Shown here: piece by piece, positions 1-55,682 of the stretch
Numbering within the stretch: the stretch's first letter is position 1
Layout: each line of letters begins with the position of its first letter
IMG/VR virus record: IMGVR_UViG_3300036850_000029
Coordinates: 1-55,682 of that record
From: a virus
Taxonomy: Duplodnaviria > Caudoviricetes
Reading direction: 5' to 3' (one strand)
Length of the DNA stretch: 55,682 nt
Notes under the pieces: model-generated
Database searches by the model: none
What the model was told of the DNA's origin: nothing
What the model saw: the letters and a program-made list of their open reading frames with translations, nothing else
Made by a program: the position numbers and the translations under genes

Positions 1-227
1 TTCCACTTGTAAATGACGGATGCGATTCCAGGTATCAACAGCGTCATCCGAAGCTTCGCATACTCGCCGCGTTGAACGATCTGTTGCTTAGAGAGCTTGC
101 CGATCTCCCGTCGTCAGACCCTCAGTCGTCTGCCTCAGACGCCCCCGCTAAAACACCGCATCAAAGCCGTCCTAGAACAACGGTCGTGCGGACAACGCTG
201 ACGACGGGAGCTTGATTATGGCCGTAT
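1..227. repeat. Terminal direct repeat / circular overlap, copy 1
   Basis: Identical to 55456-55682 except G128 vs T55583. Confidence 0.97.
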
Positions 228-4794: not shown

Positions 4795-4954
4795 GCTGCC
4801 AAGCCGCTGGACACGGCTATAATAAAAAACACTCATGCGAGTTAATCAAATTCCCAAAGCACGACTGGAAGAGGGGTTTTCGATGCGCCGCCCGGCGTCG
4901 TCGGCTTTTTCCCTGTCCAATCCGGTCGTGCCTTGGGGCTTTGATTATCCATGA
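4795..4954 (+). promoter_or_regulatory. Structured leader with 39-codon uORF (4835-4954) coupled to the initiator gene
   Basis: Stem 4844-4869/4921-4946; uORF TGA overlaps ATG 4951. Confidence 0.55.
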
Positions 4955-8926: not shown

Positions 8927-8951
8927 ACTGCTGAAGCGAAAGGACGAAATT

Positions 8952-9116
8952 ATGAGACTGACAAAAAGGTACTTGGAGACGTGTGTAAAGTTGGGTTTTC
9001 GTGCAGACACTAAGTTTGTGACGTTGCGCGGGAATGTGATTGGTTTTACGTGTGGGAAACCCGACGAATTGAGAAGGCTGGCGCGGGCCGCGATTGCGAA
9101 AGCGAGGGGAGCATGA
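8952..9116 (+). CDS. Hypothetical protein (54 aa)
   Basis: Read by hand (MRLTKRYLE...); AAGGA RBS. Confidence 0.6.
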   Translation: MRLTKRYLETCVKLGFRADTKFVTLRGNVIGFTCGKPDELRRLARAAIAKARGA

Positions 9117-9322
9117 GCGAGCAGCGACATTACAGGCCGATTTTGGCACTCGGCTATCAGAGCGGCGACGGAACGATCCAAGTCACGGATGTTTTGTGTA
9201 ATAATTTTCCTGACATGACAAACGCAGAAATGGCGGCTCTATCGTGGAATCTCACCATTTGGGCGGGTGACTTGCGCAGGCCAGCGCGGGCAGAACTGGC
9301 GAGGAAGGAGAGCAAGGAATGA
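9113..9322 (+). CDS. Hypothetical protein
   Basis: Coupled ORF (MSEQRHY...). Confidence 0.55.
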   Translation: MSEQRHYRPILALGYQSGDGTIQVTDVLCNNFPDMTNAEMAALSWNLTIWAGDLRRPARAELARKESKE

Positions 9323-9531
9323 ATCGAGGAATCATCATGGACGCGGCCACGGGCGAACCTGTCACCGAATCAGAACGTTCAAGACTCTGGATCATAGCCG
9401 CAATCTCGTATTTGGAATCAGCCAAGGCGTGGTCTGAAACCAGTCGCCGGAATCGTAAAAGCAAAGTCGATTACTATTTGAGTAGTGCCAGCGATGCCAT
9501 TGCGCTTGCGAGGAAGGAGCCGGGGGCATGA
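9319..9531 (+). CDS. Hypothetical protein
   Basis: Coupled ORF. Confidence 0.55.
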   Translation: MNRGIIMDAATGEPVTESERSRLWIIAAISYLESAKAWSETSRRNRKSKVDYYLSSASDAIALARKEPGA

Positions 9532-9866
9532 AAGCATATCCACAAATTGAAATCGTGAATTGGCAGGACAAAGGTTTTTTCGGGATCGTGTGGTTGGATG
9601 AAAAGCACAACCGAACAATTCCACACGCAAACCTGAAATGTCCCGAGGAACTGTACGCAACCGAGGCCGAAGCAAATGCGGCATGTCAGCTTTACGTTGA
9701 AAGGATTGTTGTGTTGAACAATAACACGGCTTTGACTCCGTGTTCTGCTGGAATGGCCCTTGATGCTGCTGCGAACATAATCGCAATGGTTGGCACAACG
9801 GGGATTGAACATGCACACAAGCAGGCGGAGAAGTGGCTTAGACTCTATTATCCTGCACGCTTATGA
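9528..9866 (+). CDS. Hypothetical protein
   Basis: Coupled ORF, AAGGAG RBS. Confidence 0.6.
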   Translation: MKAYPQIEIVNWQDKGFFGIVWLDEKHNRTIPHANLKCPEELYATEAEANAACQLYVERIVVLNNNTALTPCSAGMALDAAANIIAMVGTTGIEHAHKQAEKWLRLYYPARL

Positions 9867-10066
9867 GGTTCATCGAGTTCAAAAAGAATGTCCAACACGG
9901 TGACGATCTTCCGGTTCAACTAATCATAAAGGGCGGCTTGTTGGTGGACAAGGAAACGGGTGAATTCGTTAGATTCGGTCTGCCAGATGGAACGGAAGTC
10001 AACGTAATGCCGCACGAGCATTTGAAGCGTCGTCTTGACGAAGCTTATCTATGGCGAAAACAGTGA
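9863..10066 (+). CDS. Hypothetical protein
   Basis: Coupled ORF. Confidence 0.55.
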   Translation: MRFIEFKKNVQHGDDLPVQLIIKGGLLVDKETGEFVRFGLPDGTEVNVMPHEHLKRRLDEAYLWRKQ

Positions 10067-10078
10067 AAGGAAAACAAC

Positions 10079-10201
10079 ATGAACACCTACAAGCAGACAG
10101 TCCGTGATTGGATGGAGCAATACGCGCAGACAAAAATGAACCTGCGTCAACTGAGGCGATTGTTTCGAGCGTGGATGCTGCGGAACTCTACAGGCTCTTA
10201 A
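10079..10201 (+). CDS. Small hypothetical protein (40 aa)
   Basis: AAGGA RBS; read by hand (MNTYKQT...). Confidence 0.45.
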   Translation: MNTYKQTVRDWMEQYAQTKMNLRQLRRLFRAWMLRNSTGS

Positions 10202-10211
10202 AGGAGGCGGA

Positions 10212-10433
10212 ATGAAAGACGACATGAGACAATACCGGGAGCATCTAAAGGTGAAACATTCAGATGGCGGAGCGAGATGGAAAACACTCGATGAAGTGTG
10301 TGTTGAATCGCCGCTGATGAGGGAATTGCGAGCCGAACATTCCAAGCTGGATCGGCTGTTGATATGGCAGGTAATTGGGGTGACAGGCTGGCTGGCGTTC
10401 CTGGCGGTGATTGTGGCAACGGCAATGAGATGA
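10212..10433 (+). CDS. Small protein with C-terminal TM helix
   Basis: AAGGAGG RBS; hydrophobic C-terminus. Confidence 0.6.
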   Translation: MKDDMRQYREHLKVKHSDGGARWKTLDEVCVESPLMRELRAEHSKLDRLLIWQVIGVTGWLAFLAVIVATAMR

Positions 10434-10441
10434 CTAGCTTT

Positions 10442-10510
10442 ATCCCCGCCGCTTCCGCGTTTCCCCACACGCGGCTGGCCCTCATAATGCCAGTCCTTAG
10501 CGGCGGGGGT
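10442..10510 (+). ncRNA. Candidate three-way-junction antisense RNA A
   Basis: 12-bp closing stem, two hairpins (loops UUCCCCAC, CCUCAUAAU), UCCUU joiner. Confidence 0.6.
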
Positions 10511-10604
10511 TTCGATTTAAGCCCTCGCAATTCTCCCCCATGTAAGGACAGCGGACGGTCAATCAAAGTGGCTTAAACGGAGTCCTGAGACGATTTCTGA
10601 GGCT

Positions 10605-10832
10605 TCAGGTAGGCTTGCCCGGGCTTTGATAGTGTTTCACAGCCCATTCAGCGGTCAACATGACGTTCCACCAATCCTCCATCGTGATACCTGTAATCAA
10701 GACGTGTTCACGCTGGTCAATGACGAGGACTTGAGCGCGGGCGGTGGCGAGAATCCTGCCAAAATCGAGCGCGGACAGAGAGGGGACTTCGGGTGGAACG
10801 GGCAATGGGTTGGATGGGGGTTGGTCGATCAT
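10605..10832 (-). CDS. Hypothetical protein
   Basis: ORF with own TTGACC..TACTTA promoter-like element. Confidence 0.5.
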   Translation of the reverse strand: MIDQPPSNPLPVPPEVPSLSALDFGRILATARAQVLVIDQREHVLITGITMEDWWNVMLTAEWAVKHYQSPGKPT

Positions 10833-10892
10833 GGCTACCTATAAGTAGGAGAACAGGCTTGTAAGGTCAAGGCGGATGGCCTAGGGTTGGGT

Positions 10893-11495
10893 ATGAGATT
10901 CCTCGTCTGTCTTCTGCTTGTTTTCACGGTTGGATGCACTTCTGGTTTGTTCAACAAACGATCTGAAAAACAAGCGATGGATTCGGCTGAGAAGCTGAAC
11001 AGTCAGTCACAGGCGAACCTTGAGCGAGTGATTGAAGGGCAGAAGGAACAGCCAAGGCCGAACATCTCACCGCAGATAGACATCAAAGGATCGAGCAACC
11101 AAGTTGACATCAAGATCCAAGCTCCTCTGCCACCTGAACCAGTTCAACCGTATCGAGAGTTCACTGGGTACGGAACGAGGACGAATCAGAAGGTAACGAC
11201 ATCGCAAAGTTGGTGGTCGGATTACAAGAACACACTGCCGCTTGGAATCTCGATGCTGGCGATTGCCATTGGTGGTTACGCAATCATTGTGCTGTTGAGG
11301 AAGGCTCGACAATCGAGCGCGGCGTTCAATTCAATGGCTGGTATGGTGGACGGTCAAATGGCACATTGGCTGGATGAATTGAACGATCAAATGGCAAAGG
11401 AAAAAGACTCAGACGCACAGGCTAGGATGGCTGTGGACAGGGCGGCCATGGAAAAGTTCCGAGGGAAGTTAGCTGAAATGAAGCCAAAGAAATAG
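10893..11495 (+). CDS. Lipoprotein with internal TM helix (u-spanin-like topology)
   Basis: Lipobox FTVG-C; TM LGISMLAIAIGGYAIIVLL. Confidence 0.55.
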   Translation: MRFLVCLLLVFTVGCTSGLFNKRSEKQAMDSAEKLNSQSQANLERVIEGQKEQPRPNISPQIDIKGSSNQVDIKIQAPLPPEPVQPYREFTGYGTRTNQKVTTSQSWWSDYKNTLPLGISMLAIAIGGYAIIVLLRKARQSSAAFNSMAGMVDGQMAHWLDELNDQMAKEKDSDAQARMAVDRAAMEKFRGKLAEMKPKK

Positions 11496-11522
11496 GCGCG
11501 ACAATCGTTAGACTGCCGCGCC
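11488..11522 (-). terminator. Intrinsic terminator (possibly bidirectional)
   Basis: GGCGCGGCAGTC-TAAC-GATTGTCGCGCC followed by TATTTCTTT on minus strand. Confidence 0.65.
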
Positions 11523-11672
11523 TTGAGCACTTCCACGAGAACCATACCAAGCCTAGCCATTGCTAGCCTCTGCGGATCAGAGCTTGCCACGCCATACCAA
11601 TGCCCCAAGCTATCGGAATTAAGTCGGTTTTCAAGCCTTGATTCCGTCCTTCCATCAGTTACGATTCCAGCC

Positions 11673-11822
11673 ATGAGCACATTTCTATTAGGCAGTTTTT
11701 TGATTTTGTTCGGCTTTACACAACTGGTGAACACATCAATCCCCGCATGGGTGATCGGCTTGCTGGCCTTGGCTGCCGGTGTGGCAACGATCATTGGGAA
11801 GTTGTTTCCGCGGTTGAAATGA
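11673..11822 (+). CDS. 49-aa two-TM membrane peptide (holin/toxin-like)
   Basis: Two hydrophobic helices, basic tail; own TTGATT-N17-TACGAT promoter. Confidence 0.6.
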   Translation: MSTFLLGSFLILFGFTQLVNTSIPAWVIGLLALAAGVATIIGKLFPRLK

Positions 11823-11963
11823 TTCGACGATCTTCAGAGCATCCCCTTGTTTCGTAACCCCGTGATCCCCACGGTACCAGTAATCGCCGTGCAAATGCAC
11901 CCAGCGAGCGAGAACCAGTTTTGACAGGTTGATTTCTGGTTCAGTCACGTCGGTATCCTCCAC
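11736..11963 (-). CDS. Hypothetical protein
   Basis: Last ORF of leftward array; convergent overlap with peptide gene. Confidence 0.4.
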   Translation of the reverse strand: MEDTDVTEPEINLSKLVLARWVHLHGDYWYRGDHGVTKQGDALKIVESFQPRKQLPNDRCHTGSQGQQADHPCGD

Positions 11964-12148
11964 AACATCACAACGAATTCCTGAGTCATCTTAAGCTTCT
12001 TCCTGTCCTTCTTCATCTGTTCAGTGATTTGATCGAGCAACAGTCTGGCATGTTCAGACCCCATGCACACAGGATGATCGGTTGCATGGGCACACTTGCC
12101 ATCGGCTGCGACGATCAGAATGTATGGGCGAGCTTGAATTGTTAGCAT
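11945..12148 (-). CDS. Hypothetical protein
   Basis: Packed leftward ORF. Confidence 0.5.
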   Translation of the reverse strand: MLTIQARPYILIVAADGKCAHATDHPVCMGSEHARLLLDQITEQMKKDRKKLKMTQEFVVMLWRIPT

Positions 12149-12570
12149 GATTCCTTCGGCGGTTCATGTTTCCCGAGTGTGTTTCTGGCGAAATCCATTC
12201 TCAAAAGCAGTTCGCCGTCTTCTGGCATTTGGACTGCCCTTGGAAGGCTAAACGCTTCGGAGCTTGCCAGTGTTTTGAGAGCCTCTCTGAGCGCGGCGAC
12301 TTCCTTGCGCAGAGATTCGACTTCAGCCTGGGCCTGCTTCCGCTCGTCACGTTCAGCGACGAAAAACTGTTTGTAATCGCGGAGTAGTTCAAGCTCGGCT
12401 CGTGCGGCGGCTTTTGATCTGATGCCGATTTCACTCCCACTGGCATACTTGACATCGGTGGAACTGATGCAATCAACCGCATAATCGAGCCACGAATCGT
12501 ATCCGGTCGGCGGGGGAAGGGGTTTTGGGGTCACGTCAATGATCTCTGGATTCTGGTTGGTCTTGCTCAT
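12142..12570 (-). CDS. Coiled-coil hypothetical protein
   Basis: Packed leftward ORF from MSKTNQN. Confidence 0.6.
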   Translation of the reverse strand: MSKTNQNPEIIDVTPKPLPPPTGYDSWLDYAVDCISSTDVKYASGSEIGIRSKAAARAELELLRDYKQFFVAERDERKQAQAEVESLRKEVAALREALKTLASSEAFSLPRAVQMPEDGELLLRMDFARNTLGKHEPPKESC

Positions 12571-12737
12571 ACAGGTCCCTTGTGATTCCAACATTTCACG
12601 CGGTCGCGGCATTGAGCGGCGGATGCAAAGTCGCCACGGCGAACGTAGTGCTTCATTGCTCGCCAATTCAGACGTCGCACGTCTCCACGCAGAACATCCG
12701 CGTAGATCGCTGCGAGTTGGTTGGTTCTCTTGCTCAT
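12567..12737 (-). CDS. Hypothetical protein (56 aa)
   Basis: Read by hand (MSKRTNQL...); ATGA overlaps at both ends. Confidence 0.55.
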   Translation of the reverse strand: MSKRTNQLAAIYADVLRGDVRRLNWRAMKHYVRRGDFASAAQCRDRVKCWNHKGPV

Positions 12738-13111
12738 TGTCCCTCCTTCAAGGCGTCGCGCAGCCCGTTCAGCCGTGTGTGGCTGAACGGGCCGCCGCCA
12801 CGCGAGGTTTCGACAAGATCCCTCGCCGCCTGCTCCACGCGCTGCAATCTCTCGATTTCTTTTCGCAGGTAGTCGATCTTTTCAGTCATGTGGGTGGTTG
12901 CGATTCCAACGAAGTCATGGAACGATTCACTGTCCGCTAATAGCTTCTTGAACTCGTCGGCGGGGACGATGGCGACTTCTTTGAACACGATGTTGCCGCT
13001 CGCGTTGAATAACGATCCTCGGTCTGCGTGAACAGTGATGCGCGGCTGACCAGTGCTATCGTCGCCCGCTTCGACGCACTTCCCGAACACGGCGGTTTTG
13101 GTGTTGTTCAT
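12734..13111 (-). CDS. Hypothetical protein
   Basis: Coupled ORF. Confidence 0.6.
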   Translation of the reverse strand: MNNTKTAVFGKCVEAGDDSTGQPRITVHADRGSLFNASGNIVFKEVAIVPADEFKKLLADSESFHDFVGIATTHMTEKIDYLRKEIERLQRVEQAARDLVETSRGGGPFSHTRLNGLRDALKEGQ

Positions 13112-13476
13112 TTGAGCAGTTTGGCTACGCGCTCGGTTAAATAGCCGTTGATCTGAGCGGTTGCCTCGTGATGTTTCTCATCAAAATTCAATTCGGCCCA
13201 CTCGGAGATGCGATGCGTCAGATGGAAGATTTCATGCGCTATGATCTTCGCGGTTAATGAATGGGATTCAAAGAAGATCCCGAAATGGCACCCGTTGCCA
13301 TAAGAGCACAGCCCGTTGTAGCCGCTATATTCACAAACTCCGAATAAATGGTTGAACTTTGCTCGTGCGGCTTCTATGTCTGGATCAACGACTAACCACA
13401 CTTCAGCATCATAGATAGGCACAGTGAATTTACGGCGTAGCTTTCTAACGGCGATTGATTTTACGGTGGGGGTCAT
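13108..13476 (-). CDS. HExxH zinc metallopeptidase-like protein
   Basis: IIAHEIFH plus downstream E (HEATA). Confidence 0.65.
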   Translation of the reverse strand: MTPTVKSIAVRKLRRKFTVPIYDAEVWLVVDPDIEAARAKFNHLFGVCEYSGYNGLCSYGNGCHFGIFFESHSLTAKIIAHEIFHLTHRISEWAELNFDEKHHEATAQINGYLTERVAKLLK

Positions 13477-13655
13477 TGTGGATTTCCTGTTTCGGTTTCC
13501 ATCAGAAAACATCCGACGCAGATATTTCCAGCAGACGTAGCGACCCAGTTGTGTTGTTGACTTTCTTCTCCGTAGAGCCTTTGGCCACACATTCCACATC
13601 GCCCCTTGTGAACCATCGTCAACCACCGCCAGACTGATATTAGCAGCCTTTTCAT
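13473..13655 (-). CDS. Zn-finger small protein
   Basis: CGMC...CVGC. Confidence 0.55.
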   Translation of the reverse strand: MKRLLISVWRWLTMVHKGRCGMCGQRLYGEESQQHNWVATSAGNICVGCFLMETETGNPQ

Positions 13656-13885
13656 TTCGTTTCCTCCAAAGCCTTTCGCGTCACTTCCGCAACCTCGAAC
13701 GATTGGCTTTCAAAGGTCATGCCGGTCAGTTGATTTATGTTCTGAATTTCCGTCAGCGCGGAGCGAAGGCGGGTGATCTCGTCGAGGCATTCGTGGAATG
13801 CTTCCGAGTATGGTGTGAGATTCGCCGCTATAGCCAAATCATCAGCAACGTTTTTCCTAAGCCAGTCAATGCGTTCCTTCGTCAT
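13652..13885 (-). CDS. Hypothetical protein
   Basis: Coupled ORF from MTKERID. Confidence 0.55.
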   Translation of the reverse strand: MTKERIDWLRKNVADDLAIAANLTPYSEAFHECLDEITRLRSALTEIQNINQLTGMTFESQSFEVAEVTRKALEETK

Positions 13886-14250
13886 TTGCCCTCCCTCAGA
13901 TTGTCGATGGCGTCGCGAAGCGTATCCCCACTGGCCTGCGCGTATTCGGGTCCAAAGAAATACCACGCTTTCGACGCTTGCACTGGCGGACCGATTGTGA
14001 CTTTTGGATTACTGAGAAGTTTCTCCAGCTTGTTCAAGCGCTCCGTGTCAGGATGCGGTGCGCGGGTGTTCCATGCGCCGATGGCCTCGGCTTCTTTGGA
14101 CTCGTCGAATGTGTGGTTGCCTGGGCAGTTGGAGCTTTCGCATCCGAAATAGATGCGCGTCCGGTCGTGTTGGTAGCGGTGGCGGCGAGCCAGAGAACCG
14201 CAGTGTGGACACGGCTTCAACACCGGCTCAGGTTTCGCGTCGGGGGTCAT
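13882..14250 (-). CDS. Lar-family restriction alleviation-like protein
   Basis: LKPCPHCG...C...C...EAIGAWNTR. Confidence 0.7.
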   Translation of the reverse strand: MTPDAKPEPVLKPCPHCGSLARRHRYQHDRTRIYFGCESSNCPGNHTFDESKEAEAIGAWNTRAPHPDTERLNKLEKLLSNPKVTIGPPVQASKAWYFFGPEYAQASGDTLRDAIDNLREGK

Positions 14251-14576
14251 TTGTTCCTTTCGTCATCCGCGCACGGCACGCAAAGCCCGCCGACGCTTGC
14301 CCCGTAGGTCCGTTTTTTGCACTTGTCGCAACAAGGGCGAAGTGTGTTTGGGATTCCCAGTTCTAGGAGGATATCCGCAGCGATGCCAACTCGTCTCTGG
14401 TCGAGTTGATAATCTGTATACGTCAACCGGCTGATACCGTAGAAGGTTCTCCTCTCAACCTCCTCGGCAAACCAGCGCAGCACGGCGCGGTATTCTTCGA
14501 CGCGCATGTCGGTCCCTTTGCGGCTCGTCGTAGCCCGCTCAGCCGTGTCGCGCAGTTGTTCGATGGCGGTCATCAT
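14247..14576 (-). CDS. Hypothetical protein, C-terminal Zn finger
   Basis: CDKC...CVPC. Confidence 0.55.
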   Translation of the reverse strand: MMTAIEQLRDTAERATTSRKGTDMRVEEYRAVLRWFAEEVERRTFYGISRLTYTDYQLDQRRVGIAADILLELGIPNTLRPCCDKCKKRTYGASVGGLCVPCADDERNK

Positions 14577-14740
14577 TGTGACAGTTTTCTTCTGAGACTC
14601 AGGAATCGTTTTGAACGCCTTATCGCCTTGCGATATTCCGGGTCTGATTTCATGTGCGAGTACGACTCAGCTATTGTCCACTCCCATTCGCTGGCAAGAA
14701 ATAGAGCGGCAAGTATTGTTTTGCGATCTCTGACGTTCAT
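14573..14740 (-). CDS. Hypothetical protein
   Basis: Coupled ORF from MNVRDRK. Confidence 0.5.
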   Translation of the reverse strand: MNVRDRKTILAALFLASEWEWTIAESYSHMKSDPEYRKAIRRSKRFLSLRRKLSQ

Positions 14741-14964
14741 GGCTTCAAAAGTAATTGTTTTGCTCTCCGTGCGACGGCGAGCCACATCTTGCGCGTTATC
14801 ACGCATCCGAAATTGTCTGCGAGTTGGTCAGCCAACTCCTGATCCGTGATCTCCTTGCGCGGCTTGTGGCGCTTCACGACCTTCTTCCACTTGCCACTTT
14901 TCTGAAGCGCGTAATGGAACGTGATGAAATCGACTGTCGGGAGTTTGTGAGGTTTGCGTTTCAT
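14737..14964 (-). CDS. Basic hypothetical protein
   Basis: Packed ORF. Confidence 0.5.
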   Translation of the reverse strand: MKRKPHKLPTVDFITFHYALQKSGKWKKVVKRHKPRKEITDQELADQLADNFGCVITRKMWLAVARRAKQLLLKP

Positions 14965-15164
14965 CAGTATGGTTTGATTTTCACCGGCAACGATTTGCGC
15001 CCAATCATTTCCGTCCGGCTGTTCTCTGTCTCCATGCCGTGCAACCTGTCCTGTTCATCTTCCTTGGCCAAGGATCTCACCAACAGCCTGAGTTCGTCCT
15101 TTAACTCTTTGATGCGCTCGATACGACGCGCACGCTCTCTTTGACTCATTGGCTTGTCGCTCAT
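14964..15164 (-). CDS. Hypothetical protein
   Basis: Coupled ORF from MSDKPMS. Confidence 0.5.
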   Translation of the reverse strand: MSDKPMSQRERARRIERIKELKDELRLLVRSLAKEDEQDRLHGMETENSRTEMIGRKSLPVKIKPY

Positions 15165-15658
15165 GGAAGTATCCTTTGCTCCTGCCAACCCTGTTTCGTC
15201 TTCCTCGCCAGCCACCAGTTAATCATACGGTACTTGGCCGCTGCCGTCTTCAGCTTCACAATCGAATCGTCGCGAATAGGTCCCGCACCCTTCACTTCCC
15301 ATGCTTCAATCAGACCCCCGCTATAGAATACGATGAAATCAGGGCGATACCGGCATCCGTTCGCCAGTGTGAAGTTTATGGCTTGTGCGTAGATCGTGTC
15401 GTCCGGCCTGATCTTGCGCGTCATAATATCGAGCCATTCCCGCTCTGTCTTGTTAATCGCTGGCTTATGTGACTGCCGGATGATCTGCGGCATCTTCGCC
15501 TTCCAGATTTCCTTGTCAGCATCGTGATGCTCAGGAACGTGGATCTTGAACAGATGCGGGTTACGCTTCCGTGTCGCTTCCGAAGGATTGTTCGGCAGGT
15601 TCATTTTCTCTTTGAATAGACGACGCGCACGGATTGTTGCGGCTTCGCGGGAGGTCAT
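15161..15658 (-). CDS. PD-(D/E)XK endonuclease (DUF1064-like, possible resolvase)
   Basis: YRPDF...EVKG motif. Confidence 0.75.
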   Translation of the reverse strand: MTSREAATIRARRLFKEKMNLPNNPSEATRKRNPHLFKIHVPEHHDADKEIWKAKMPQIIRQSHKPAINKTEREWLDIMTRKIRPDDTIYAQAINFTLANGCRYRPDFIVFYSGGLIEAWEVKGAGPIRDDSIVKLKTAAAKYRMINWWLARKTKQGWQEQRILP

Positions 15659-16056
15659 GCGATGGGAATCAGTTCCATTGTTCCATTCGCACGCTTCCGT
15701 TCTCTCGTTGCAGCGGCGTTCTTCATGTGGCGAATCGTGTCGATTCTAAGGTGACATCTCTGGCACATAGCTTTTAGATGGTCCATTCGACCGCACTTCC
15801 TTCCTGTTTGTTCTTCGCAGTCGCACGGGCCACCGGGATAATCGAGATGCGCGATTGTCAGGATCACAGTTCCTTTCGCCCACTTCGCTTTTGAGCCGTG
15901 CATTTCACAGCAACGCCGTGGCCCTCCCGTTGTTCGATGCAATCCGCATTCTCCCGAGCACTCGCAGCGACAATCCGAACGGATCAGGATCTCGGACCGA
16001 ATCTCTGACCAGTTGGCCGGGTAAAGGTGCGACTTCGTTTTGTGGGGCTTGCTCAT
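15655..16056 (-). CDS. HNH endonuclease
   Basis: YP.NW..IR..IL.R..CRCE...LTIAHLD...HL.AMCQRCH. Confidence 0.8.
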   Translation of the reverse strand: MSKPHKTKSHLYPANWSEIRSEILIRSDCRCECSGECGLHRTTGGPRRCCEMHGSKAKWAKGTVILTIAHLDYPGGPCDCEEQTGRKCGRMDHLKAMCQRCHLRIDTIRHMKNAAATRERKRANGTMELIPIA

Positions 16057-16286
16057 AGCAGTCTTTCGACTCCACTCTTTGTCACAATGGCAAACACCTT
16101 TCCAAGTGATTCAAGCATCTCTTTGTCGTCTGTGATCCCAAGGCTTCCATACGATGCCGTGTCGCAAATCCGAAACGCGATGCCTCCAACGTAGAGCGTT
16201 TTCTTCCGGCGCTTCACTTGGCTCTGAGCGTCTTTGATTGCTTCCTCAACAGCCTTGCGCGGATAGATGACAGCGGGATTACTCAT
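16053..16286 (-). CDS. Hypothetical protein
   Basis: Coupled ORF. Confidence 0.55.
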   Translation of the reverse strand: MSNPAVIYPRKAVEEAIKDAQSQVKRRKKTLYVGGIAFRICDTASYGSLGITDDKEMLESLGKVFAIVTKSGVERLL

Positions 16287-16453
16287 TCCTTCGCTTCCTC
16301 CCTTGCTCCAATTTTCACAGGCATCTGGCCAAGCTTAGCCTGCAACTCCAAAAACAGTTGCCACGCTTCATCTCTGTCCAGTGTGATAATGCCACCATCG
16401 CACTCGATCCGCATGAGCGCACCGGCTGGATGGTCGATGACTTGGACGGTCAT
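16283..16453 (-). CDS. Hypothetical protein
   Basis: Coupled ORF from MTVQVID. Confidence 0.5.
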   Translation of the reverse strand: MTVQVIDHPAGALMRIECDGGIITLDRDEAWQLFLELQAKLGQMPVKIGAREEAKE

Positions 16454-16635
16454 TTCGTCTCCTCCCTCGCGACGCGCTCGCACTCGTGGATCAGTGCATT
16501 GGCTATCATCACCGAGTTTTGTATTGCATGGTCCATTGACATCTCGGGGTCAAGTTTGCAAATCGTTGAGTACATTACCGGCGCGATCCTCTCCAGCTTC
16601 TCGCGCATAACTTGTTCGGGGGTGGGGGTGGTCAT
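16450..16635 (-). CDS. Hypothetical protein
   Basis: Coupled ORF. Confidence 0.55.
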   Translation of the reverse strand: MTTPTPEQVMREKLERIAPVMYSTICKLDPEMSMDHAIQNSVMIANALIHECERVAREETK

Positions 16636-16717
16636 GATCGTGCTTGTGATGAAATAAAACGTTCTGCAAGAAACTTGGAATAGGCTGGTGGAATCGCTTG
16701 TGATAGCTCTGCACGCG

Positions 16718-17110
16718 TCACCTAGAGTATTGATTATACGACGCGCTCAGATTGTAAATGTTAGCCGTCCTTTGAGCGTGCGAATCCGGCTTCCACTTCC
16801 TCCGTTTCGCCCCCGTGAATCCGTGGTGCCAGCAGAGCGCAACATTGGCGGCAGAATCGGCGACACCGGCCTTTCGCATCAGGGTGAGTTTGATGTCGAT
16901 CAGCCGGTGCGCCGGATCGCCCGTGCCTGATAAGCCGAGCCGGGCAAGCTCTCTGAAAGCGATCTTGGAGATTTGATGACGGCCAACTTCACCGGCTTTC
17001 CCGACGGCCTTTGGGTTGTCGTTCGATTCCACCAAAGCCAGCGCGTGCAGGAACCGCTCTCGGTCTATCGGTCCGCACAGCGCAAGGATTAGGAGGATGG
17101 TCGCGTTCAT
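16718..17110 (-). CDS. Lytic transglycosylase (SLT-like) with N-terminal hydrophobic segment
   Basis: ALALVES.DNP.AVG..GEVG..QI...WHHG; N-terminus MNATILLILALC. Confidence 0.75.
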   Translation of the reverse strand: MNATILLILALCGPIDRERFLHALALVESNDNPKAVGKAGEVGRHQISKIAFRELARLGLSGTGDPAHRLIDIKLTLMRKAGVADSAANVALCWHHGFTGAKRRKWKPDSHAQRTANIYNLSASYNQYSR

Positions 17111-17346
17111 TTCGTGAATTCTTTCGGTGGCATTCCGTATCCAGCCTCTGTCGCCAGCCATTTTAGGCGGTCAGGATCTTGACTAAGTCCAGCACCTGCT
17201 ACGCTTCGGCACCATTTACCCCACGTCTCGCCATCTCGAAAATTCATCACATCCGAGATTGATATGAGACGCAGCGCGGAGAGCCTGCACCATTCCAAAC
17301 CGGGAGGAACTTCGGCGATTGTTTGCTTTGTCATTTCAGCTTTCAT
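17107..17346 (-). CDS. Hypothetical protein
   Basis: Coupled ORF. Confidence 0.5.
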   Translation of the reverse strand: MKAEMTKQTIAEVPPGLEWCRLSALRLISISDVMNFRDGETWGKWCRSVAGAGLSQDPDRLKWLATEAGYGMPPKEFTK

Positions 17347-17354
17347 TTCAAAAT

Positions 17355-17426
17355 TGGCGGTGGCGAGCGCAAGGATACGCCCATAGGTGTAACGCTGTTA
17401 TGAGGCAGCGTCAGCACTTGCCACCA
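17355..17426 (-). ncRNA. Candidate three-way-junction antisense RNA B
   Basis: ~12-bp closing stem with 3' GCCA, hairpin loop CCUCAUAA, UCCUU joiner. Confidence 0.55.
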
Positions 17427-17605
17427 TTCGTTTTGTGCGTCTTTCGATTGGAATAATGTTTGGAAACGTTTCCGGTTCTTAAAGCCAGCCAAAGGATCTC
17501 GTTTACCAGTTCATCCGCAGTAAACGATTGCACTTTTGCCTTTTTGCAGCGATTCAATTCGTCGTTCACAAGAGCGCGTATGGCAGGATGAAGTTTTATG
17601 TTCAC
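17411..17605 (-). CDS. Small DNA-binding (RHH/Arc-like) protein
   Basis: GTG start overlapping upstream TGA; VNIKLHP..R....ELVNEIL pattern. Confidence 0.5.
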   Translation of the reverse strand: MNIKLHPAIRALVNDELNRCKKAKVQSFTADELVNEILWLALRTGNVSKHYSNRKTHKTNGGKC

Positions 17606-17787
17606 GATTCCTTTAGTTCCTCCAAAAACTTCCTTCTCGCTCCTCCATACGATTTCCTGAGCGTCGGCAGTGATCGCTTCACGCACAGCCGCACAACGTC
17701 GCTGAACGACATCCCGATTGAAACTGATGTTGCATCAAGCTCCTCTCTTTCTTTCTGTTCAAACCTCACGGTCGTATTGATCTTCAT
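17602..17787 (-). CDS. Ribbon-helix-helix (CopG/Arc-like) regulator
   Basis: TTVRF...EREELD...IGMSFSDVVRLCV. Confidence 0.7.
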   Translation of the reverse strand: MKINTTVRFEQKEREELDATSVSIGMSFSDVVRLCVKRSLPTLRKSYGGARRKFLEELKES

Positions 17788-17793
17788 GCCGCG

Positions 17794-17822
17794 AGAATGC
17801 ATCGCAACCGAACACGTTGCAA
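17794..17822 (-). promoter_or_regulatory. Promoter of leftward early operon with palindromic operator
   Basis: TTGCAA-N17-CATTCT, ATG 7 nt downstream; GCAAC-N7-GTTGC at 17804-17820. Confidence 0.6.
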
Positions 17823-17870
17823 GCGGTGATTTGGTGGGAGGGAAGAATTAAGGCTGGCTAATCTTCGTGA

Positions 17871-20800
17871 TTAGTTTTTCTTTGGAAACCCTTTTTGAGC
17901 TTCCTGAAACAGTTCCTTCAACGGCAATGTTCTGCCGATTTCCTGAGCGCGTTTGTAAACGTGTTCGGTGACTTTCTGAGGAATGTAGCGACCTTCGTAA
18001 ATGGATTTGGCTTCTCCCTTTGGCAAACCACGAGCCATTAGAATCCCAGCCGCTTCACTTGGTTTCACGCCACGTCTCAGCGCAGCCAAGTAATCCGCTC
18101 TCATCTCCTCCCAGTAAGCGCGACGACGAATCTCTGATTCTCGATAAGCCTCAACGATCTGTTCCGGCGTAGTCGTTTGAGTCCTTGTCGCCACCTGACG
18201 AAACACATCTTCCGCCGCATTGCTGTTCTCCATGTAGGATCGGACTTTGAATCCAAGAGCCGTCTTGAAATTGAACTTCTCAACAGCGATGCCTGTCACT
18301 TCACGAGCAATTTCCTGAGCCGGTTCCAGCTTTCTTCCGAAACGTGGCTGCTCATCTTTCAGTGCCGGGATGATTCGTTTCTGAGCGCGTTGAAGTGTTC
18401 CCGGTTCAAGAGAGGTTACAACGTGAGCCAGACGCTTGCGTGTCTTTACCCAGTCTGAATCGGTTGGATTGAACAGATCACGGCCTGTATCAGTCTTCCC
18501 GTTCCTTGCCTCAGCCGTAGCCTTGATCAACATCTGTTCACTGTACCATGGGCGGAATGTTTCCTTTCCTATCTCGGTCACAATATCGACGACGTCCTTC
18601 CCCTGTCGTATCCCGCTAATAACTGGCGTTGCCAAGTCCGTGACGCCAGCATAGGGATCAAGACGTGATGCGTTGATGTAAGTGATCTCACCTGTCTTCG
18701 GATCTTTGCCCGTGAATATGAGGCGCGAGTTCTTGTCATACGGCGCAAGGAATCGGCGCAGATCATCTTCCTCTTGTGCCGTGATTCCGAGCATCAACTT
18801 TGATACTTCCTGCAATGCCAACGGAGCCGATGCAGCAGCCACTTGTAAGCCCAACCGTTTCCAGCCTGTTTCACGCTCAACAGGATTGGTTGATCGAATC
18901 TCATGAACCGATCTTGCAATGCCGTTCACAACATTACGCCAGACTTGGTAAGGGAAGTTCACGAATGGCCCAACCACGATGTTCTTTCGGAACTCTTTCA
19001 CAATGACCGGCGCTTCCGAGTAGGTTGGGTAAATGTCGCGAACGATTGAAGCGGCTTCAGTGTCAAGCTGTGCATCCGTCCAATCGGGATGAATCCGCTT
19101 TTGCGTGGCTCGCTCATTCAGGAACCCAAAGATGTTACCGAACTCATCAGTGAGCCGGTAGATCTCACCCGGCACTTTCACCAAGGAAGTCTTGAGCGCA
19201 CGCATCAAAGACCAAGACGTTAGTTCGGCTGGTGCCACGTCTTGAAGGTTCGCATCCTTGAATATCTCCCGAAGCTCAGACGCTCGGGCTGTATCCCCGA
19301 TCACGCCGAGCTTGTAGAGTCTGTTCAGGAATGGACGCCATGTCTTGTTGGAGCTTGCGAAGTCGGACCAGACCAGCTTCAGGGCTTGGCTCGCGTATCT
19401 TGGATCAACGTGGCCAGCATGGATTGCCATTGGGACACGGGAAAGCAAGTTGCGCGAATGCGTCATCAGGCTTTGCGCTGTGTTCGCAAACTTAGTCCAC
19501 GCATTGAGCATCAAATAACCGCGAACAAGTCCGCCAATCATTCCCTTCCTCACGACCGGGGTATCCATCGACTTGAACGCATCTGCAATATCCTGACTCG
19601 TTCTCAGTCCCGACAGCGGCGACATGGATTCAGAACCTTCGGCTGCGATTCGCGCATTGAATCCTGGCGGGTTCGATCCTTCCTCGAACAGATAGTTCCC
19701 CATCCCCTTTGCCTTCACTTCCTCAAGGAACTTCTGTTTGGCGACAAACTGAGCCATTTTGCCAACGCTCTTGGCGTAGTTGATGAGTGGATTGCGATAC
19801 TCACCAAGGACAGCGCGTAGTTCTTGCGGTATGTCCTTTCGACGCAGGAACATTGTCAGATCCTTTGATCCGAGCTTACCGCCTGTCCCGAATGACGATT
19901 CGTCCCGAAGATCGCTCAACCAGTTCAACAGTTCCCGTTGGGCTTGTTCCGGTGTGATACCGCGTGCAGTTGAGAGATACTGTTCCGCCCTGATCCTGTC
20001 GCCTATCGGAACCTTCTCATAGAAGTCTGGAGCCGGTGTCTTTTCATCGAAGAACCTGTACGACCGATGAACATACACGTCCATGTTCTTCTGGATTGTC
20101 TCGATCAGATCTCCAAGGCTCTTGGCTTTGGCGCTGTCAGGCTCAAGTCGATTCAATTGCTCAGTCAGCGTGTCGATTGTTTTCTGTGACCATCCTTCAA
20201 TCTGAGAACGCATGGTGTCGAGTTGTCCTCGAATAACGGGTGGAATCTTGGCAGTTTGTTCAGGCGTTGTGCGTCCATGCAGATACTCGTCCATCAGCTG
20301 AACGTCTTCCGGTGGAATGCGCCGTGTTCCGCCACCAGCTCGTTGCGCCCTGCTCAATCCGTAAACATCTCCAAGCGTGTTCAGGAAGTCGCGTTGCGTC
20401 ATTCGGATGTCGAATTCAGCCGCCCTCCGTTGGCCTTCCATGACAGTTTGGAGTTCGTGAACCTCGCGTGGCAACTTTCCAGACACGGTAAAGGCCTGTC
20501 TGGTTTTCTTCATGAACTTGCCAACGGCACCTGTCGGAATGGATGGAGCAGATGGCGTGATGCCCATGGTTGATCCGCGTTCTGACTGCAATGCTTCTGG
20601 TGAGAATGGCGGGGTTACATGTAATTCACCTTTGGCGGCTTCTGGAATGACACTCCCGCGTGGCAGAACTCCTTCGCCACTTTCAGGGGCGGACACTTGC
20701 CCTTGGCCTTCTTGCGCGACTTCTGGCTGGCGCACAGACACATCAGGCGGTGTTGGGCTTTCGATTTGCTGGGCACTTGGTCCTCCTTTGGCTTCCAACT

Positions 20801-50817: not shown

Positions 50818-51096
50818 TCAGTAATCAGCCGCCATTGCATCAATCTCTTTGTCAGCCGAATGTTGAACCGGCACATCCTCGTCATCGTTTGAAATGACTT
50901 TTTCGTTGGGCTGAACACCGCGCTCAAGGGGCTTGCCATCTATGTGTGTGATCGTAAAACGCTCTCCGATCTTGATCCACTTCACCATTGCCTCGCCCTC
51001 ATCCTGTCCCATTGCAACCGTTCCTTCAGGCGGAGTGAACTCGACGCCGGGATAGTTGTCGTGCATTTGCATAAGGATCGGGAGTGGCCAACCCAT
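50818..51096 (-). CDS. Hypothetical acidic protein
   Basis: Follows the capsid gene; start uncertain. Confidence 0.5.
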   Translation of the reverse strand: MGWPLPILMQMHDNYPGVEFTPPEGTVAMGQDEGEAMVKWIKIGERFTITHIDGKPLERGVQPNEKVISNDDEDVPVQHSADKEIDAMAADY

Positions 51097-51116
51097 TGTC
51101 AGCCACTCCCGCTTGG

Positions 51117-55263: not shown

Positions 55264-55670
55264 CCAAGATCCAGACAATCGAACATTTCATTCAAAAGTT
55301 CACGGCCATAAGCGACGATCAATGGTGCGAGAACAGTCTGCAAGATGCTTTTGGACGACGATGTGCCCTTGGCCATTGCCTGATAGACACCAGCCTGCCG
55401 ATCAAGGACTGTGAATCTGAACGGTTAACCGCACTGTTTCGACATTGCTTGTCCGTTCCACTTGTAAATGACGGATGCGATTCCAGGTATCAACAGCGTC
55501 ATCCGAAGCTTCGCATACTCGCCGCGTTGAACGATCTGTTGCTTAGAGAGCTTGCCGATCTCCCGTCGTCAGACCCTCAGTCTTCTGCCTCAGACGCCCC
55601 CGCTAAAACACCGCATCAAAGCCGTCCTAGAACAACGGTCGTGCGGACAACGCTGACGACGGGAGCTTGA
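55260..55670 (+). CDS. Hypothetical protein
   Basis: W......RCALGH...NDG pattern; 3' part duplicated at 1-215. Confidence 0.6.
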   Translation: MTKIQTIEHFIQKFTAISDDQWCENSLQDAFGRRCALGHCLIDTSLPIKDCESERLTALFRHCLSVPLVNDGCDSRYQQRHPKLRILAALNDLLLRELADLPSSDPQSSASDAPAKTPHQSRPRTTVVRTTLTTGA

Positions 55671-55682
55671 TTATGGCCGTAT
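55456..55682. repeat. Terminal direct repeat / circular overlap, copy 2
   Basis: Matches 1-227. Confidence 0.97.

What the first reader, a model, noticed from the sequence alone, without database searches (positions are those of the whole stretch)
17355..17426. Second junction RNA with the same loops, different stems and a 3' CCA
Seen (minus strand): GGTGGCAAGTGC-TGACGCTG[CCTCATAA]CAGCGTTA-CACCTATGGGCGT-ATCCTT-GCGCTCGCCACC-GCCA. Stems are unrelated to the 10442 element, yet the CCUCAUAA loop and the UCCUU joiner before the closing stem recur, suggesting selection on exposed sequence. It follows two RHH regulator genes in the opposite early operon. Inference: RNase P-type processed RNA giving cross-repression between the two convergent early operons. 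CUCAUAA is also a tRNA-Met anticodon loop, so tRNA mimicry or decoy activity is an alternative.
Basis: partly seen in the sequence, partly recalled or inferred. Interest (0 to 1): 0.76.

Follow-up and report, generated by a model that had tools for sequence, protein, structure and literature searches.

The report
tRNA-shaped small RNA in soil phage
A 71-base stretch between two genes of an uncultivated soil phage folds into a very stable tRNA-shaped RNA with a CCA tail that is not a tRNA; it may be cut out by RNase P and act as a small regulatory RNA, but there are no relatives or expression data to prove it.

Summary
The quoted sequence is exact (minus strand, G1 = 17425, A71 = 17355; 17426 is a U before it). 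It folds strongly: MFE -34.5 kcal/mol, z -4.35, 0 of 200 shuffles as stable.

It is a three-way junction: a 6-bp acceptor-like stem, an 11-bp arm with the 8-nt loop CCUCAUAA, a 7-bp arm with a UCCU tetraloop, then GCCA. That is the shape of a tRNA without a D arm. ARAGORN, the Rfam tRNA model, the Rfam C4 model and all of Rfam give no match.

The element carries the sequence features of a bacterial RNase P substrate: U-1, G+1:C, a 13-bp coaxial stack and 3' RCCA. It shares CCUCAUAA followed by UCCU(U) with the 10442 element. That element has the same topology as phage P1 C4 antisense RNA, with the shared motifs where C4 has its target-binding segments b' and a'.

My best reading (0.35) is a processed, C4-like anti-ribosome-binding-site RNA. 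"Early operon", "RHH genes" and "cross-repression" are not supported. No relative's DNA, no RNA data and no convincing target could be obtained, so function stays inferred. I rate it a new variant of a known kind, of moderate interest.

The parts
17355..17425 (-). Element B: the whole 71-nt tRNA-shaped RNA (G1 = 17425, A71 = 17355)
   Evidence: Sequence. MFE -34.7 kcal/mol and pair probabilities. z -4.35.
17426..17426 (-). U at position -1, just 5' of the predicted RNase P cut (between 17426 and 17425)
   Evidence: The role of U-1 comes from passages of PMC11143913. The cut itself is inferred.
17420..17425 (-). P1 5' strand GGUGGC (acceptor-like stem, 6 bp)
17359..17364 (-). P1 3' strand GCCACC
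17387..17417 (-). P2: anticodon-arm-like hairpin, 3 + 8 bp with one bulged C. It contains the stop codon UGA (17413-17411) of the upstream small ORF.
17398..17405 (-). 8-nt loop CCUCAUAA, unpaired in the ensemble. It holds the heptamer CUCAUAA.
17365..17382 (-). P3: 7-bp hairpin GGGCGUA/UGCGCUC (two G-U pairs) with tetraloop UCCU (17375-17372). It abuts P1 with no spacer, as a T arm does.
17355..17358 (-). 3' single-stranded GCCA (RCCA motif), followed by AU-rich AUUUUGAAAUG that leads into the next ORF (ATG 17346)
10442..10510 (+). Element A, the partner that shares the motifs. It has a 12-bp closing stem and P2 (loop 10461-10468, UUCCCCAC). P3 has the loop CCUCAUAAU (10480-10488), and the joiner is UCCUU (10494-10498).
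   Evidence: Same topology as P1 C4.
8940..8957 (+). Best in-window candidate target (weak): AAGGAC-gaaa-UUAUGAG, the ribosome-binding site and start of ORF 8952-9116. It is unpaired in the local fold.
   Evidence: Complementarity only; not shown to be a target.

Best explanation
Element B is a small structured RNA embedded in the long leftward transcription unit. I think it works like the RNase P-processed antisense RNAs of phages (P1/P7 C4 type).

(1) The polycistronic transcript folds into a tRNA-shaped module without a D arm.
(2) Host RNase P cuts between U17426 and G17425. The 3' end is made at or near the encoded CCA, in the AU-rich stretch that follows.
(3) The released 71-nt RNA exposes CCUCAUAA in an 8-nt loop and UCCU in a tetraloop. 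Both are complementary to ribosome-binding-site sequence, 5'-AAGGA...UUAUGAGG-3' (Shine-Dalgarno plus AUG region).
(4) It pairs with such a site and lowers translation.

Element A (10442-10510) carries the same two motifs on unrelated stems, so it would recognise the same target. A side effect of step 2 is that the upstream small ORF (17411-17605) loses its stop codon, which lies 13-15 nt inside the RNA.

Shown: sequence, fold stability, RNase P determinants, motif sharing, the C4-like topology of A, and non-membership in known families. Inferred: transcription of this strand, processing, trans action and the target.
For: - Fold: z -4.35, 0 of 200 shuffles as stable. It is among the top 10 structured 80-nt windows of the genome and stable in flanking context.
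- Three G-U pairs exist in the minus-strand junction; they would be C-A on the other strand (read).
- All neighbouring ORFs with family support are on the minus strand.
- RNase P determinants are present: U-1, G+1:C, a 13-bp P1+P3 stack with no spacer, and 3' GCCA (determinants from passages of PMC11143913).
- Among 31 stem+RCCA candidates in the window it is the most stable. Only 2 of 587 shuffled candidates are as stable.
- The P1 C4 control shows a closing stem, then P2, then P3 directly adjacent, then a single-stranded joiner, then the closing stem.
- In C4 the target-binding b' lies in the P3 loop and a' in the joiner (annotated a2/b2 sites and sequence). C4 starts GGUGG and ends CCACC.
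- Element A has this same topology, with CCUCAUAA at the b' place and UCCUU at the a' place. Element B starts GGUGG and ends CCACC-GCCA.
- Passages of PMC5320573 state that C4 is cut by RNase P at the 5' side of its closing stem, starts with GGW, and that its b' loop occludes a ribosome-binding site.
- All exposed segments of A and B are C/U-rich and free of G: UUCCCCAC, CCUCAUAAU and UCCUU in A; CCUCAUAA and UCCU in B.
- My estimate (inference, not a computed test) for the joint chance of the shared loop 8-mer plus the shared downstream pentamer between two of the top structured elements is about 1e-3 or less.
Against: - There is no conservation evidence. No relative's DNA could be obtained, so there is no covariation.
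- The Rfam C4 model finds nothing in this genome at E <= 10, while P1 scores 68.8 bits. No Rfam family matches.
- B itself does not have the C4 topology. Its long loop is in the first hairpin, and UCCU is a 4-nt loop closed by A-U, a poor pairing platform.
- No a/b-type target pair flanks B. The energy scan gave no outlier apart from the elements' own antisense strands.
- The two-site count (12 against 1.7 in shuffles) includes both self-antisense sites and generic ribosome-binding sites. The best candidate (8940-8957) has only 7+5 bp with B.
- The plus strand also folds well and also ends in ACCA.
- Shared loop 8-mers are common under a lenient hairpin definition.
- Element A has no RCCA.
Confidence: 0.35

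Rival explanations
1. Processing or punctuation module. The tRNA-like fold is there only to be cut by RNase P (and 3' enzymes). The cut would separate the upstream message (virion protein plus two small ORFs) from the downstream message (79-aa ORF, SLT-like, HNH-like and resolvase-like genes) and set their stabilities. The excised RNA would be a by-product with no trans function.
For: - The RNase P determinants are the same as for the best explanation.
- The element sits exactly at a module boundary: virion structural protein upstream, DNA-metabolism and lysis-type genes downstream.
- The next ORF starts 9 nt after the CCA without a visible Shine-Dalgarno sequence.
- RNase P is reported to process polycistronic mRNAs (passage of PMC3858429).
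Against: - It does not explain why an unrelated-stem element 7 kb away on the other strand carries the same loop octamer and the UCCUU pentamer.
- Element A lacks RCCA.
- Cutting here would remove the stop codon of the upstream ORF.
Confidence: 0.2
2. No dedicated RNA function. B and A are ordinary stable intergenic hairpin clusters, such as transcript-stabilising or attenuating structures or RNase III sites. The shared motifs and the CCA are coincidence, or simply pyrimidine-rich reverse complements of ribosome-binding-site-like sequence.
For: - Shared loop 8-mers are frequent (79 against a mean of 64.9 in shuffles).
- Stem+RCCA is frequent (31 against 19.6).
- CCTCATAA three times is reached by 6 of 100 shuffles.
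- Seven other regions of the window are at least as structured.
- Both strands fold.
- There is no conservation or expression evidence.
Against: - Several features coincide: an octamer that fills the loop in both elements, UCCU(U) downstream in both, extreme stability, U-1/G+1/RCCA, and a P3 that abuts P1 as in tRNA. I estimate this joint occurrence as rare (inference).
- The terminator scan finds no terminator at either element.
Confidence: 0.25
3. tRNA-Met mimic or degenerate tRNA. B (no D arm, with CCA) and A (no T arm) imitate the anticodon arm and, for B, the acceptor end of tRNA-Met/fMet. They would be bound or cut by proteins that read those features, for example as decoys for tRNA-directed defence nucleases or as sponges for tRNA-binding enzymes.
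For: - The loop holds CUCAUAA.
- B has 2 nt after the acceptor stem, a 4-nt 'variable' spacer, a T-arm-like helix abutting the acceptor stem, a discriminator and CCA.
- A has a D-arm-like and an anticodon-arm-like hairpin plus a 5-nt spacer.
- Defences that cut tRNA-fMet (VapC; passage of PMC7180214) or tRNA CCA tails (Cas12a3; abstract passage of PMC12851939) exist.
Against: - ARAGORN finds 0 genes. The tRNA covariance model gives no match at E <= 10.
- The loops have 8 and 9 nt rather than 7, there is no T loop (UCCU tetraloop), and the anticodon-like stem is 11 bp.
- Literature searches found no described phage decoy of this kind.
- No defence or counter-defence context was seen in the neighbouring genes.
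Confidence: 0.1
4. DNA-level site. The 8-bp and 5-bp motifs, in inverted orientation 7 kb apart, are binding sites for a DNA-binding protein (for example one of the small upstream ORFs) or recombination sites. The hairpins would then be incidental.
For: The motifs occur in opposite orientation on the two strands. Small possible DNA-binding ORFs lie next to B; the first has a sub-threshold NikA-like hit, E 0.052.
Against: - The spacing between the two motifs differs (6 against 22 nt).
- The motifs sit precisely in unpaired positions of very stable RNA folds.
- No inverted-repeat operator architecture is present.
- The RHH fold is not confirmed.
Confidence: 0.05

Closest known systems
C4 antisense RNA of phages P1/P7 (Rfam RF01695)
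   Same: - It is a small RNA (77 nt) embedded in an operon transcript.
- Its 5' end is made by RNase P at the base of a closing stem that starts GGW.
- It starts GGUGG and ends CCACC, with a tRNA-like 3' overhang.
- It has two exposed segments (a hairpin loop of about 8 nt and a short single strand) that pair with a two-part target at a ribosome-binding site.
- Element A has the identical helix topology, and the shared motifs lie at the b' and a' places.
   Different: - There is no sequence or covariance-model similarity: no match at E <= 10, while P1 scores 68.8 bits.
- B's own topology differs: the recognition loop is in the first hairpin, the second motif is in a tetraloop, and the closing stem is only 6 bp.
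- B has a full encoded CCA.
- No a1/b1 or a2/b2 target sites lie beside it.
- There are two copies on opposite strands instead of one.
tRNA-Met / armless (truncated) tRNAs
   Same: An acceptor-like stem that starts with G, a discriminator plus CCA, a CUCAUAA heptamer in the long arm's loop, a 4-nt spacer, and a helix that abuts the 3' acceptor strand.
   Different: There is no D arm and no T loop. The loop has 8 nt on an 11-bp arm and the acceptor stem has 6 bp. It is not detected by ARAGORN or by RF00005.
Other non-tRNA RNase P substrates of phages and cells: P4 CI RNA, phi80 M3 RNA, the tmRNA precursor, and tRNA-like 3' processing modules such as mascRNA. Names are recalled; C4 and tmRNA as substrates appear in a passage of PMC3858429.
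   Same: A tRNA-like acceptor/T-stem stack with an RCCA-type 3' end, used as an RNase P handle on a non-tRNA RNA.
   Different: No homology was tested or found. The functions of those RNAs differ (immunity, unknown, trans-translation). The phage here is an orphan without relatives.
Cloverleaf-shaped accessory RNA of soil phages noted earlier in this scan (e1-5350865)
   Same: A tRNA-shaped element in a soil phage that ends in ACCA, that no tRNA detector recognises, and whose role is unknown.
   Different: That one is 96 nt and four-armed, and is reported as conserved with compensatory changes. I could not see its sequence or compare it.

Membership tests
tRNA | Recognised by tRNA detectors (ARAGORN; Rfam RF00005 at or above 29 bits) | tested here: not met
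   ARAGORN finds 0 genes in the window. RF00005 gives no match at E <= 10 in the genome, while it is over its cut-off in 14 of 14 control genomes. No tRNA hit in the 801-nt permissive Rfam scan.
tRNA | 7-nt anticodon loop on a 5-bp stem, D arm, and T arm with a 7-nt T loop | tested here: not met
   8-nt loop on an 11-bp arm, no D arm, and a 7-bp arm with a UCCU tetraloop.
tRNA | Acceptor stem with a 5' G and a 3' discriminator plus CCA | tested here: met
   GGUGGC/GCCACC followed by GCCA. The stem is 6 bp rather than 7.
C4 antisense RNA (RF01695) | Covariance-model score at or above the gathering score (45 bits) | tested here: not met
   No match at E <= 10 in G000 (8 candidates scored). The P1 control scores 68.8 bits.
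C4 antisense RNA (RF01695) | Topology: closing stem, two directly adjacent hairpins, single-stranded joiner, closing stem | tested here: not met
   Element B has AA after P1, its recognition loop in the first hairpin, a 4-nt spacer and no 3' joiner. Element A does meet this topology.
C4 antisense RNA (RF01695) | Two-part complementary target sites (a/b) in the same transcript next to the RNA gene, with b at a ribosome-binding site | tested here: not met
   There is no AAGGA...UUAUGAGG-type pair in the 40-60 nt windows that the scans examined around the sites near B. The only exact pairs are the antisense strands of A and B. The best real ribosome-binding site is 8940-8957, 8.4 kb away on the other strand.
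C4 antisense RNA (RF01695) | 5' end generated by RNase P | not testable with these tools
   Only the sequence determinants can be read. No RNA holder is listed for this phage.
Bacterial RNase P substrate (model-substrate determinants) | U at -1, a G+1:C pair, a coaxial helix of about 12 bp, and a 3' RCCA able to pair with the P15 loop | tested here: met
   U17426, G17425:C17359, P1 6 bp + P3 7 bp = 13 bp with no spacer, and GCCA 17358-17355. Determinants are from passages of PMC11143913. Actual cleavage was not tested.
Intrinsic (rho-independent) terminator | G+C-rich hairpin immediately followed by a U tract | tested here: not met
   The scan of 9000-19000 lists no terminator at 17355-17426 or at 10442-10510. 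After B come GCCA and then only four U.
tmRNA | Detected by ARAGORN (tRNA-like domain plus tag reading frame) | tested here: not met
   ARAGORN finds 0 tmRNA genes.

The most novel reading that the evidence does not exclude
The two elements are a matched pair of truncated tRNA-Met mimics made by the phage. One lacks a D arm and has an authentic acceptor end and CCA tail. The other lacks a T arm. Both present the CUCAUAA anticodon-loop sequence. They would serve as decoys or sponges that absorb host tRNA-directed immunity, such as nucleases of the VapC type that cut the initiator tRNA anticodon loop, or effectors that cut or modify CCA tails. A related bolder variant is an RNA that imitates both mRNA-reading elements of the 30S initiation complex at once (an anti-Shine-Dalgarno UCCU/CCUC and the initiator anticodon loop) in order to mask start sites.
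Probability: 0.08. Interest if true: 0.85.

Novelty: new variant of a known kind. Interest (0 to 1): 0.4.

Why it matters
If the reading is right, an orphan soil phage carries two small RNAs, not alike in sequence, that reinvent the P1 C4 principle. Each would be a tRNA-like handle for RNase P joined to exposed anti-ribosome-binding-site loops, and neither belongs to any curated RNA family. That would show that processed antisense RNAs embedded in operons are more widespread, and more varied in shape, than covariance models built on enterobacterial phages can detect. It would also give a compact, testable case (71 nt, defined cut site, defined loops) for how tRNA-like shapes are reused in phages. 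If the element is instead only a processing signal or a chance hairpin cluster, it is ordinary.

Tried and rejected
**Relatives**
- blastn of 16700-18000 against 50,697 phage records gave no match.
- The 1491-aa neighbour in viral contigs gave 1 locus at 31% identity (L002). That locus has no CCTCATAA and no similar structured element among its top 10 windows.
- The same protein in metagenome contigs gave 0 relatives. In GenBank phages by tblastn it gave 11 records at 22-27% identity, too distant to use.
- The SLT-like neighbour in viral contigs gave 0.
- The 79-aa neighbour has 2 relatives in the protein collection (68% and 71% identity, on contigs of 955 and 3093 bp). Their DNA could not be reached. 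The alignment scan of metagenome contigs returned 2 loci that I read as false positives, and the scan of viral contigs returned 0.
- The upstream small ORF has only itself in the protein collection.

**DNA pattern scans**
- The 16-nt hairpin-top pattern matched 10 viral stretches. None of the 10 resembles the element.
I folded 126 matches and read those whose ends pair; they are G+C-rich and look like coding sequence.
- The ends-plus-loop pattern in genome contigs matched 48 stretches. I folded 51 matches and none reproduces the junction.

**Expression and population data**
- No RNA holder is listed; one DNA run holds the stretch.
- Laying that run's contigs showed no variant inside either element.

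**Target search**
- Exact and 1-mismatch sites, G-U-tolerant sites and the two-site count and the duplex-energy scan gave no outlier beyond the self-antisense sites.

**Context checks**
- For the two small ORFs, Pfam and PHROGs gave nothing better than E 0.05-0.09.
- AlphaFold single-sequence models were of low confidence (pLDDT 63 and 60).
- Foldseek against the PDB gave 0 matches at E <= 0.001.

**Earlier notes of this scan**
- There are none for this genome or sequence.

**Readings rejected**
- A phage attachment site holding a tRNA 3' half: there is no T arm and no tRNA match.
- A minus-strand gene starting at the AUG antisense to element A. That frame scores poorly for coding, and the plus-strand ORF it overlaps has a convincing C-terminal membrane helix.

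Full report
**What is there.**

The window is one whole IMG/VR virus record of 55,682 bp. The only sequencing run that holds it is labelled soil metagenome.

U(17426)-GGUGGC-AA-GUG-C-UGACGCUG-[CCUCAUAA]-CAGCGUUA-CAC-CUAU-GGGCGUA-[UCCU]-UGCGCUC-GCCACC-GCCA(17355)

- The 72-nt stretch folds to -34.5 kcal/mol, against -21.8 +/- 2.9 for dinucleotide shuffles. That is z -4.35, with 0 of 200 shuffles as stable.
- In my scan of all 80-nt windows on both strands, this locus ranks 9th and the 10442 locus 8th after regression on G+C.
- The fold persists with 60-nt flanks.

It evaluates to -28.2 kcal/mol against -34.7 for the MFE, and none of the 7 listed suboptimal folds within 3 kcal/mol has it.

The favoured structure is a three-way junction:
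- P1, 6 bp: GGUGGC/GCCACC.
- Two unpaired A.
- P2, 3 + 8 bp with one bulge, with the 8-nt loop CCUCAUAA.
- Four unpaired nt: CUAU.
- P3, 7 bp including two G-U pairs, with the tetraloop UCCU. It abuts the 3' strand of P1.
- A single-stranded GCCA.

This is the outline of a tRNA lacking its D arm.

**It is not a tRNA or any curated RNA family.**

- ARAGORN finds no tRNA or tmRNA in the window.
- Rfam at gathering thresholds finds nothing in the window.
- A permissive Rfam scan of 17000-17800 finds only three chance-level hits to unrelated families. The same holds around element A.
- The tRNA model RF00005 gives no match at E <= 10 in the genome, although it rings in 14 of 14 control genomes.
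- The C4 model RF01695 gives no match at E <= 10 (8 candidates scored), while phage P1 scores 68.8 bits.

**RNase P features.**

A review of RNase P (passages read, PMC11143913) names the determinants of bacterial substrates. They are U at -1, the G+1/C+72 pair, the 12-bp acceptor plus T-stem stack as a measuring device, and the 3' RCCA that pairs with the P15 loop.

Element B has U-1 (17426), G+1:C, a 6+7 = 13-bp stack with no spacer, and GCCA.

How special is this?
- A G..C stem of at least 6 bp followed by RCCA at a 55-89-nt span occurs 31 times in the window, against 19.6 in Markov shuffles. The motif alone is therefore common.
- B is the most stable of the 31 (-0.489 kcal/mol per nt). Only 2 of 587 shuffled candidates reach -0.48.
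- The same script shows that the plus strand of this locus also has a G..C stem followed by ACCA. The plus strand folds to -36.0.

The strand therefore rests on three points:
- the direction of the neighbouring genes;
- the three G-U pairs of the minus-strand junction;
- the fuller RCCA.

It does not rest on energy.

**The partner element and the C4 comparison.**

Element A (plus strand, 10442-10510; -38 kcal/mol, z -5.35) consists of:
- a 12-bp closing stem;
- one unpaired U;
- P2, 6 bp, loop UUCCCCAC;
- P3, 5 bp, directly adjacent, loop CCUCAUAAU;
- the joiner UCCUU;
- the 3' strand of the closing stem.

I fetched phage P1 as a control. The Rfam alignment of its c4 gene shows the following:
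- a closing stem;
- P2;
- a directly adjacent P3 with a long loop;
- a 7-nt joiner;
- the 3' strand of the closing stem.

The record annotates target sites a2 (TTGACAG) and b2 (GTTAGTGA, next to the icd ribosome-binding site). These are complementary to the joiner and to the P3 loop respectively.

So A has the C4 topology. The two motifs that A and B share sit in A exactly where C4 has its b' and a' recognition segments. B shares with P1 C4 the end sequences GGUGG...CCACC.

Passages of PMC5320573 state that C4 is about 77 nt, is cut by RNase P at the 5' side of its closing stem, and starts with GGW. They also state that its b' loop partly occludes a ribosome-binding site while a' gives specificity.

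**What the shared motifs would recognise.**

5'-CCUCAUAA...UCCU(U)-3' is complementary to 5'-AAGGA...UUAUGAGG-3'. That is a Shine-Dalgarno-like pentamer followed by a start-codon region. All exposed segments of A and B are C/U-rich and free of G.

I searched for targets:
- The exact octamer complement occurs once outside the elements, at the start of ORF 9863, but without AAGGA upstream.
- The two-site count (AAGGA, then within 60 nt at most 1 mismatch to TTATGAGG) is 12, against 1.7 in shuffles.
- The list is made up of the two self-antisense sites, a few generic ribosome-binding sites and some internal sites.
- The best genuine ribosome-binding site is AAGGAC-gaaa-UUAUGAG at 8940-8957, the start of ORF 8952-9116. 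It is unpaired in the local fold. It matches A by 6+8 bp and B by 5+7 bp.
- A duplex-energy scan gave no outlier.

I therefore treat the target as unknown.

**Significance of the motif sharing.**

CCTCATAA three times is weak on its own: 6 of 100 shuffles reach it. Shared loop octamers are common under a lenient hairpin definition (79 against 64.9).

What is unusual is the conjunction. Two of the ten most structured elements each present the same octamer filling a hairpin loop. Each is followed within 6-22 nt by UCCU(U) before the closing strand. My back-of-envelope estimate is about 1e-3 or lower after allowing for a few hundred element pairs. This is an inference, not a computed test.

**Context.**

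All ORFs near B that have any family support run on the minus strand:
- Directly upstream lies a 1491-aa protein matching phrog_22602, 'virion structural protein' (E 1e-48).
- Then come two small ORFs, 17602-17802 and 17411-17605. The second ends at UGA 17413-17411, inside P2 of the RNA.
- Downstream, 9 nt after the CCA, come a 79-aa ORF, an SLT-like protein (Pfam E 2.9e-4, just under the cut-off), an HNH endonuclease (E 1.2e-17) and a resolvase-like protein (E 3.7e-10).

The two small ORFs could be RHH proteins, but this is not shown:
- the best hits are NikA-like at E 0.052 and a PHROG repressor at E 0.092;
- the AlphaFold models have pLDDT 63 and 60, with an extended N-terminus followed by helices;
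- Foldseek finds nothing at E <= 0.001.

'Early operon' is thus not supported. B sits at a boundary between a structural module and a module of small, DNA-metabolism and lysis-type genes.

Element A lies after a 73-aa ORF with a C-terminal membrane helix and before a lipoprotein-like membrane protein at 10893-11495. A bidirectional-looking terminator at 11494-11523 is the more likely meeting point of the convergent transcription.

**Relatives.**

None could be used. Every nucleotide and protein-anchored search failed or returned only very distant or false hits; these are listed under Tried and rejected.
- No RNA run is listed.
- The one DNA run shows no variants in either element.

Hence there is no covariation and no expression evidence.

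**Verdict.**

My best explanation (0.35) is an RNase P-processed, C4-like antisense RNA with anti-ribosome-binding-site loops that shares its specificity with element A.

Rivals:
- a pure processing or punctuation module (0.20);
- no dedicated function, or coincidence (0.25);
- a tRNA-Met mimic or decoy (0.10);
- a DNA-level site (0.05).

It is not a member of the tRNA or C4 families by their defining models. It resembles them in how it would work.

I could not compare it.

Supplementary files of the papers were not consulted. Hartmann et al. 1995, the primary paper on C4 and RNase P, is not held. Its content is cited only through the passages of PMC5320573 and PMC3858429.

Noticed in passing
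window 1-227 and 55456-55682: An exact 227-bp direct terminal repeat. The record is probably a complete genome of 55,455 bp with a terminal repeat or a circular assembly, although the collection labels it linear and 64% complete.
   Followed up: partly
window 17411-17413 (minus strand): The stop codon of the upstream small ORF (17411-17605) lies at positions 13-15 of the RNA. An RNase P cut at 17426/17425 would leave that ORF on a message without a stop codon. Conversely, a terminating ribosome would unfold P1 and P2.
   Followed up: no
window 17362-17426 (plus strand): The plus strand of the same locus also forms a G..C stem of 6 bp preceded by U and followed by ACCA, and it folds to -36.0 kcal/mol. 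The locus is tRNA-end-like on both strands.
   Followed up: partly
window 8940-8957 (plus strand): The ribosome-binding site and start of ORF 8952-9116 read AAGGAC-gaaa-UUAUGAG. This is the best in-window complement to the motif pair of elements A and B. A strong hairpin precedes it.
   Followed up: partly
window 11494-11523: A 13-bp G+C-rich hairpin followed by a U-rich tail on the minus strand, right at the stop of the plus-strand gene 10893-11495. It is probably the true convergence terminator of the two transcription units.
   Followed up: no
window 10212-10433, 10893-11495 (plus strand); 16718-17161 (minus strand): Possible lysis-type genes lie next to both elements: a 73-aa protein with a C-terminal membrane helix, a lipoprotein-like protein with an internal membrane helix, and an SLT-like transglycosylase with a hydrophobic N-terminus.
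   Followed up: no
window 48578-48915 and 33859-34929: Four tandem copies with a 72-nt period lie inside the 770-aa tail-like gene. Seven dispersed copies of a 51-nt unit lie inside the 602-aa gene. These are probably repeated protein domains.
   Followed up: no
window 12740-12835 (minus strand), 4850-4940 (plus strand), 51070-51165 (minus strand): Other very stable local structures (z -5.8, -4.1 and -5.1; folds). None carries the CCUCAUAA or UCCUU motifs.
   Followed up: partly
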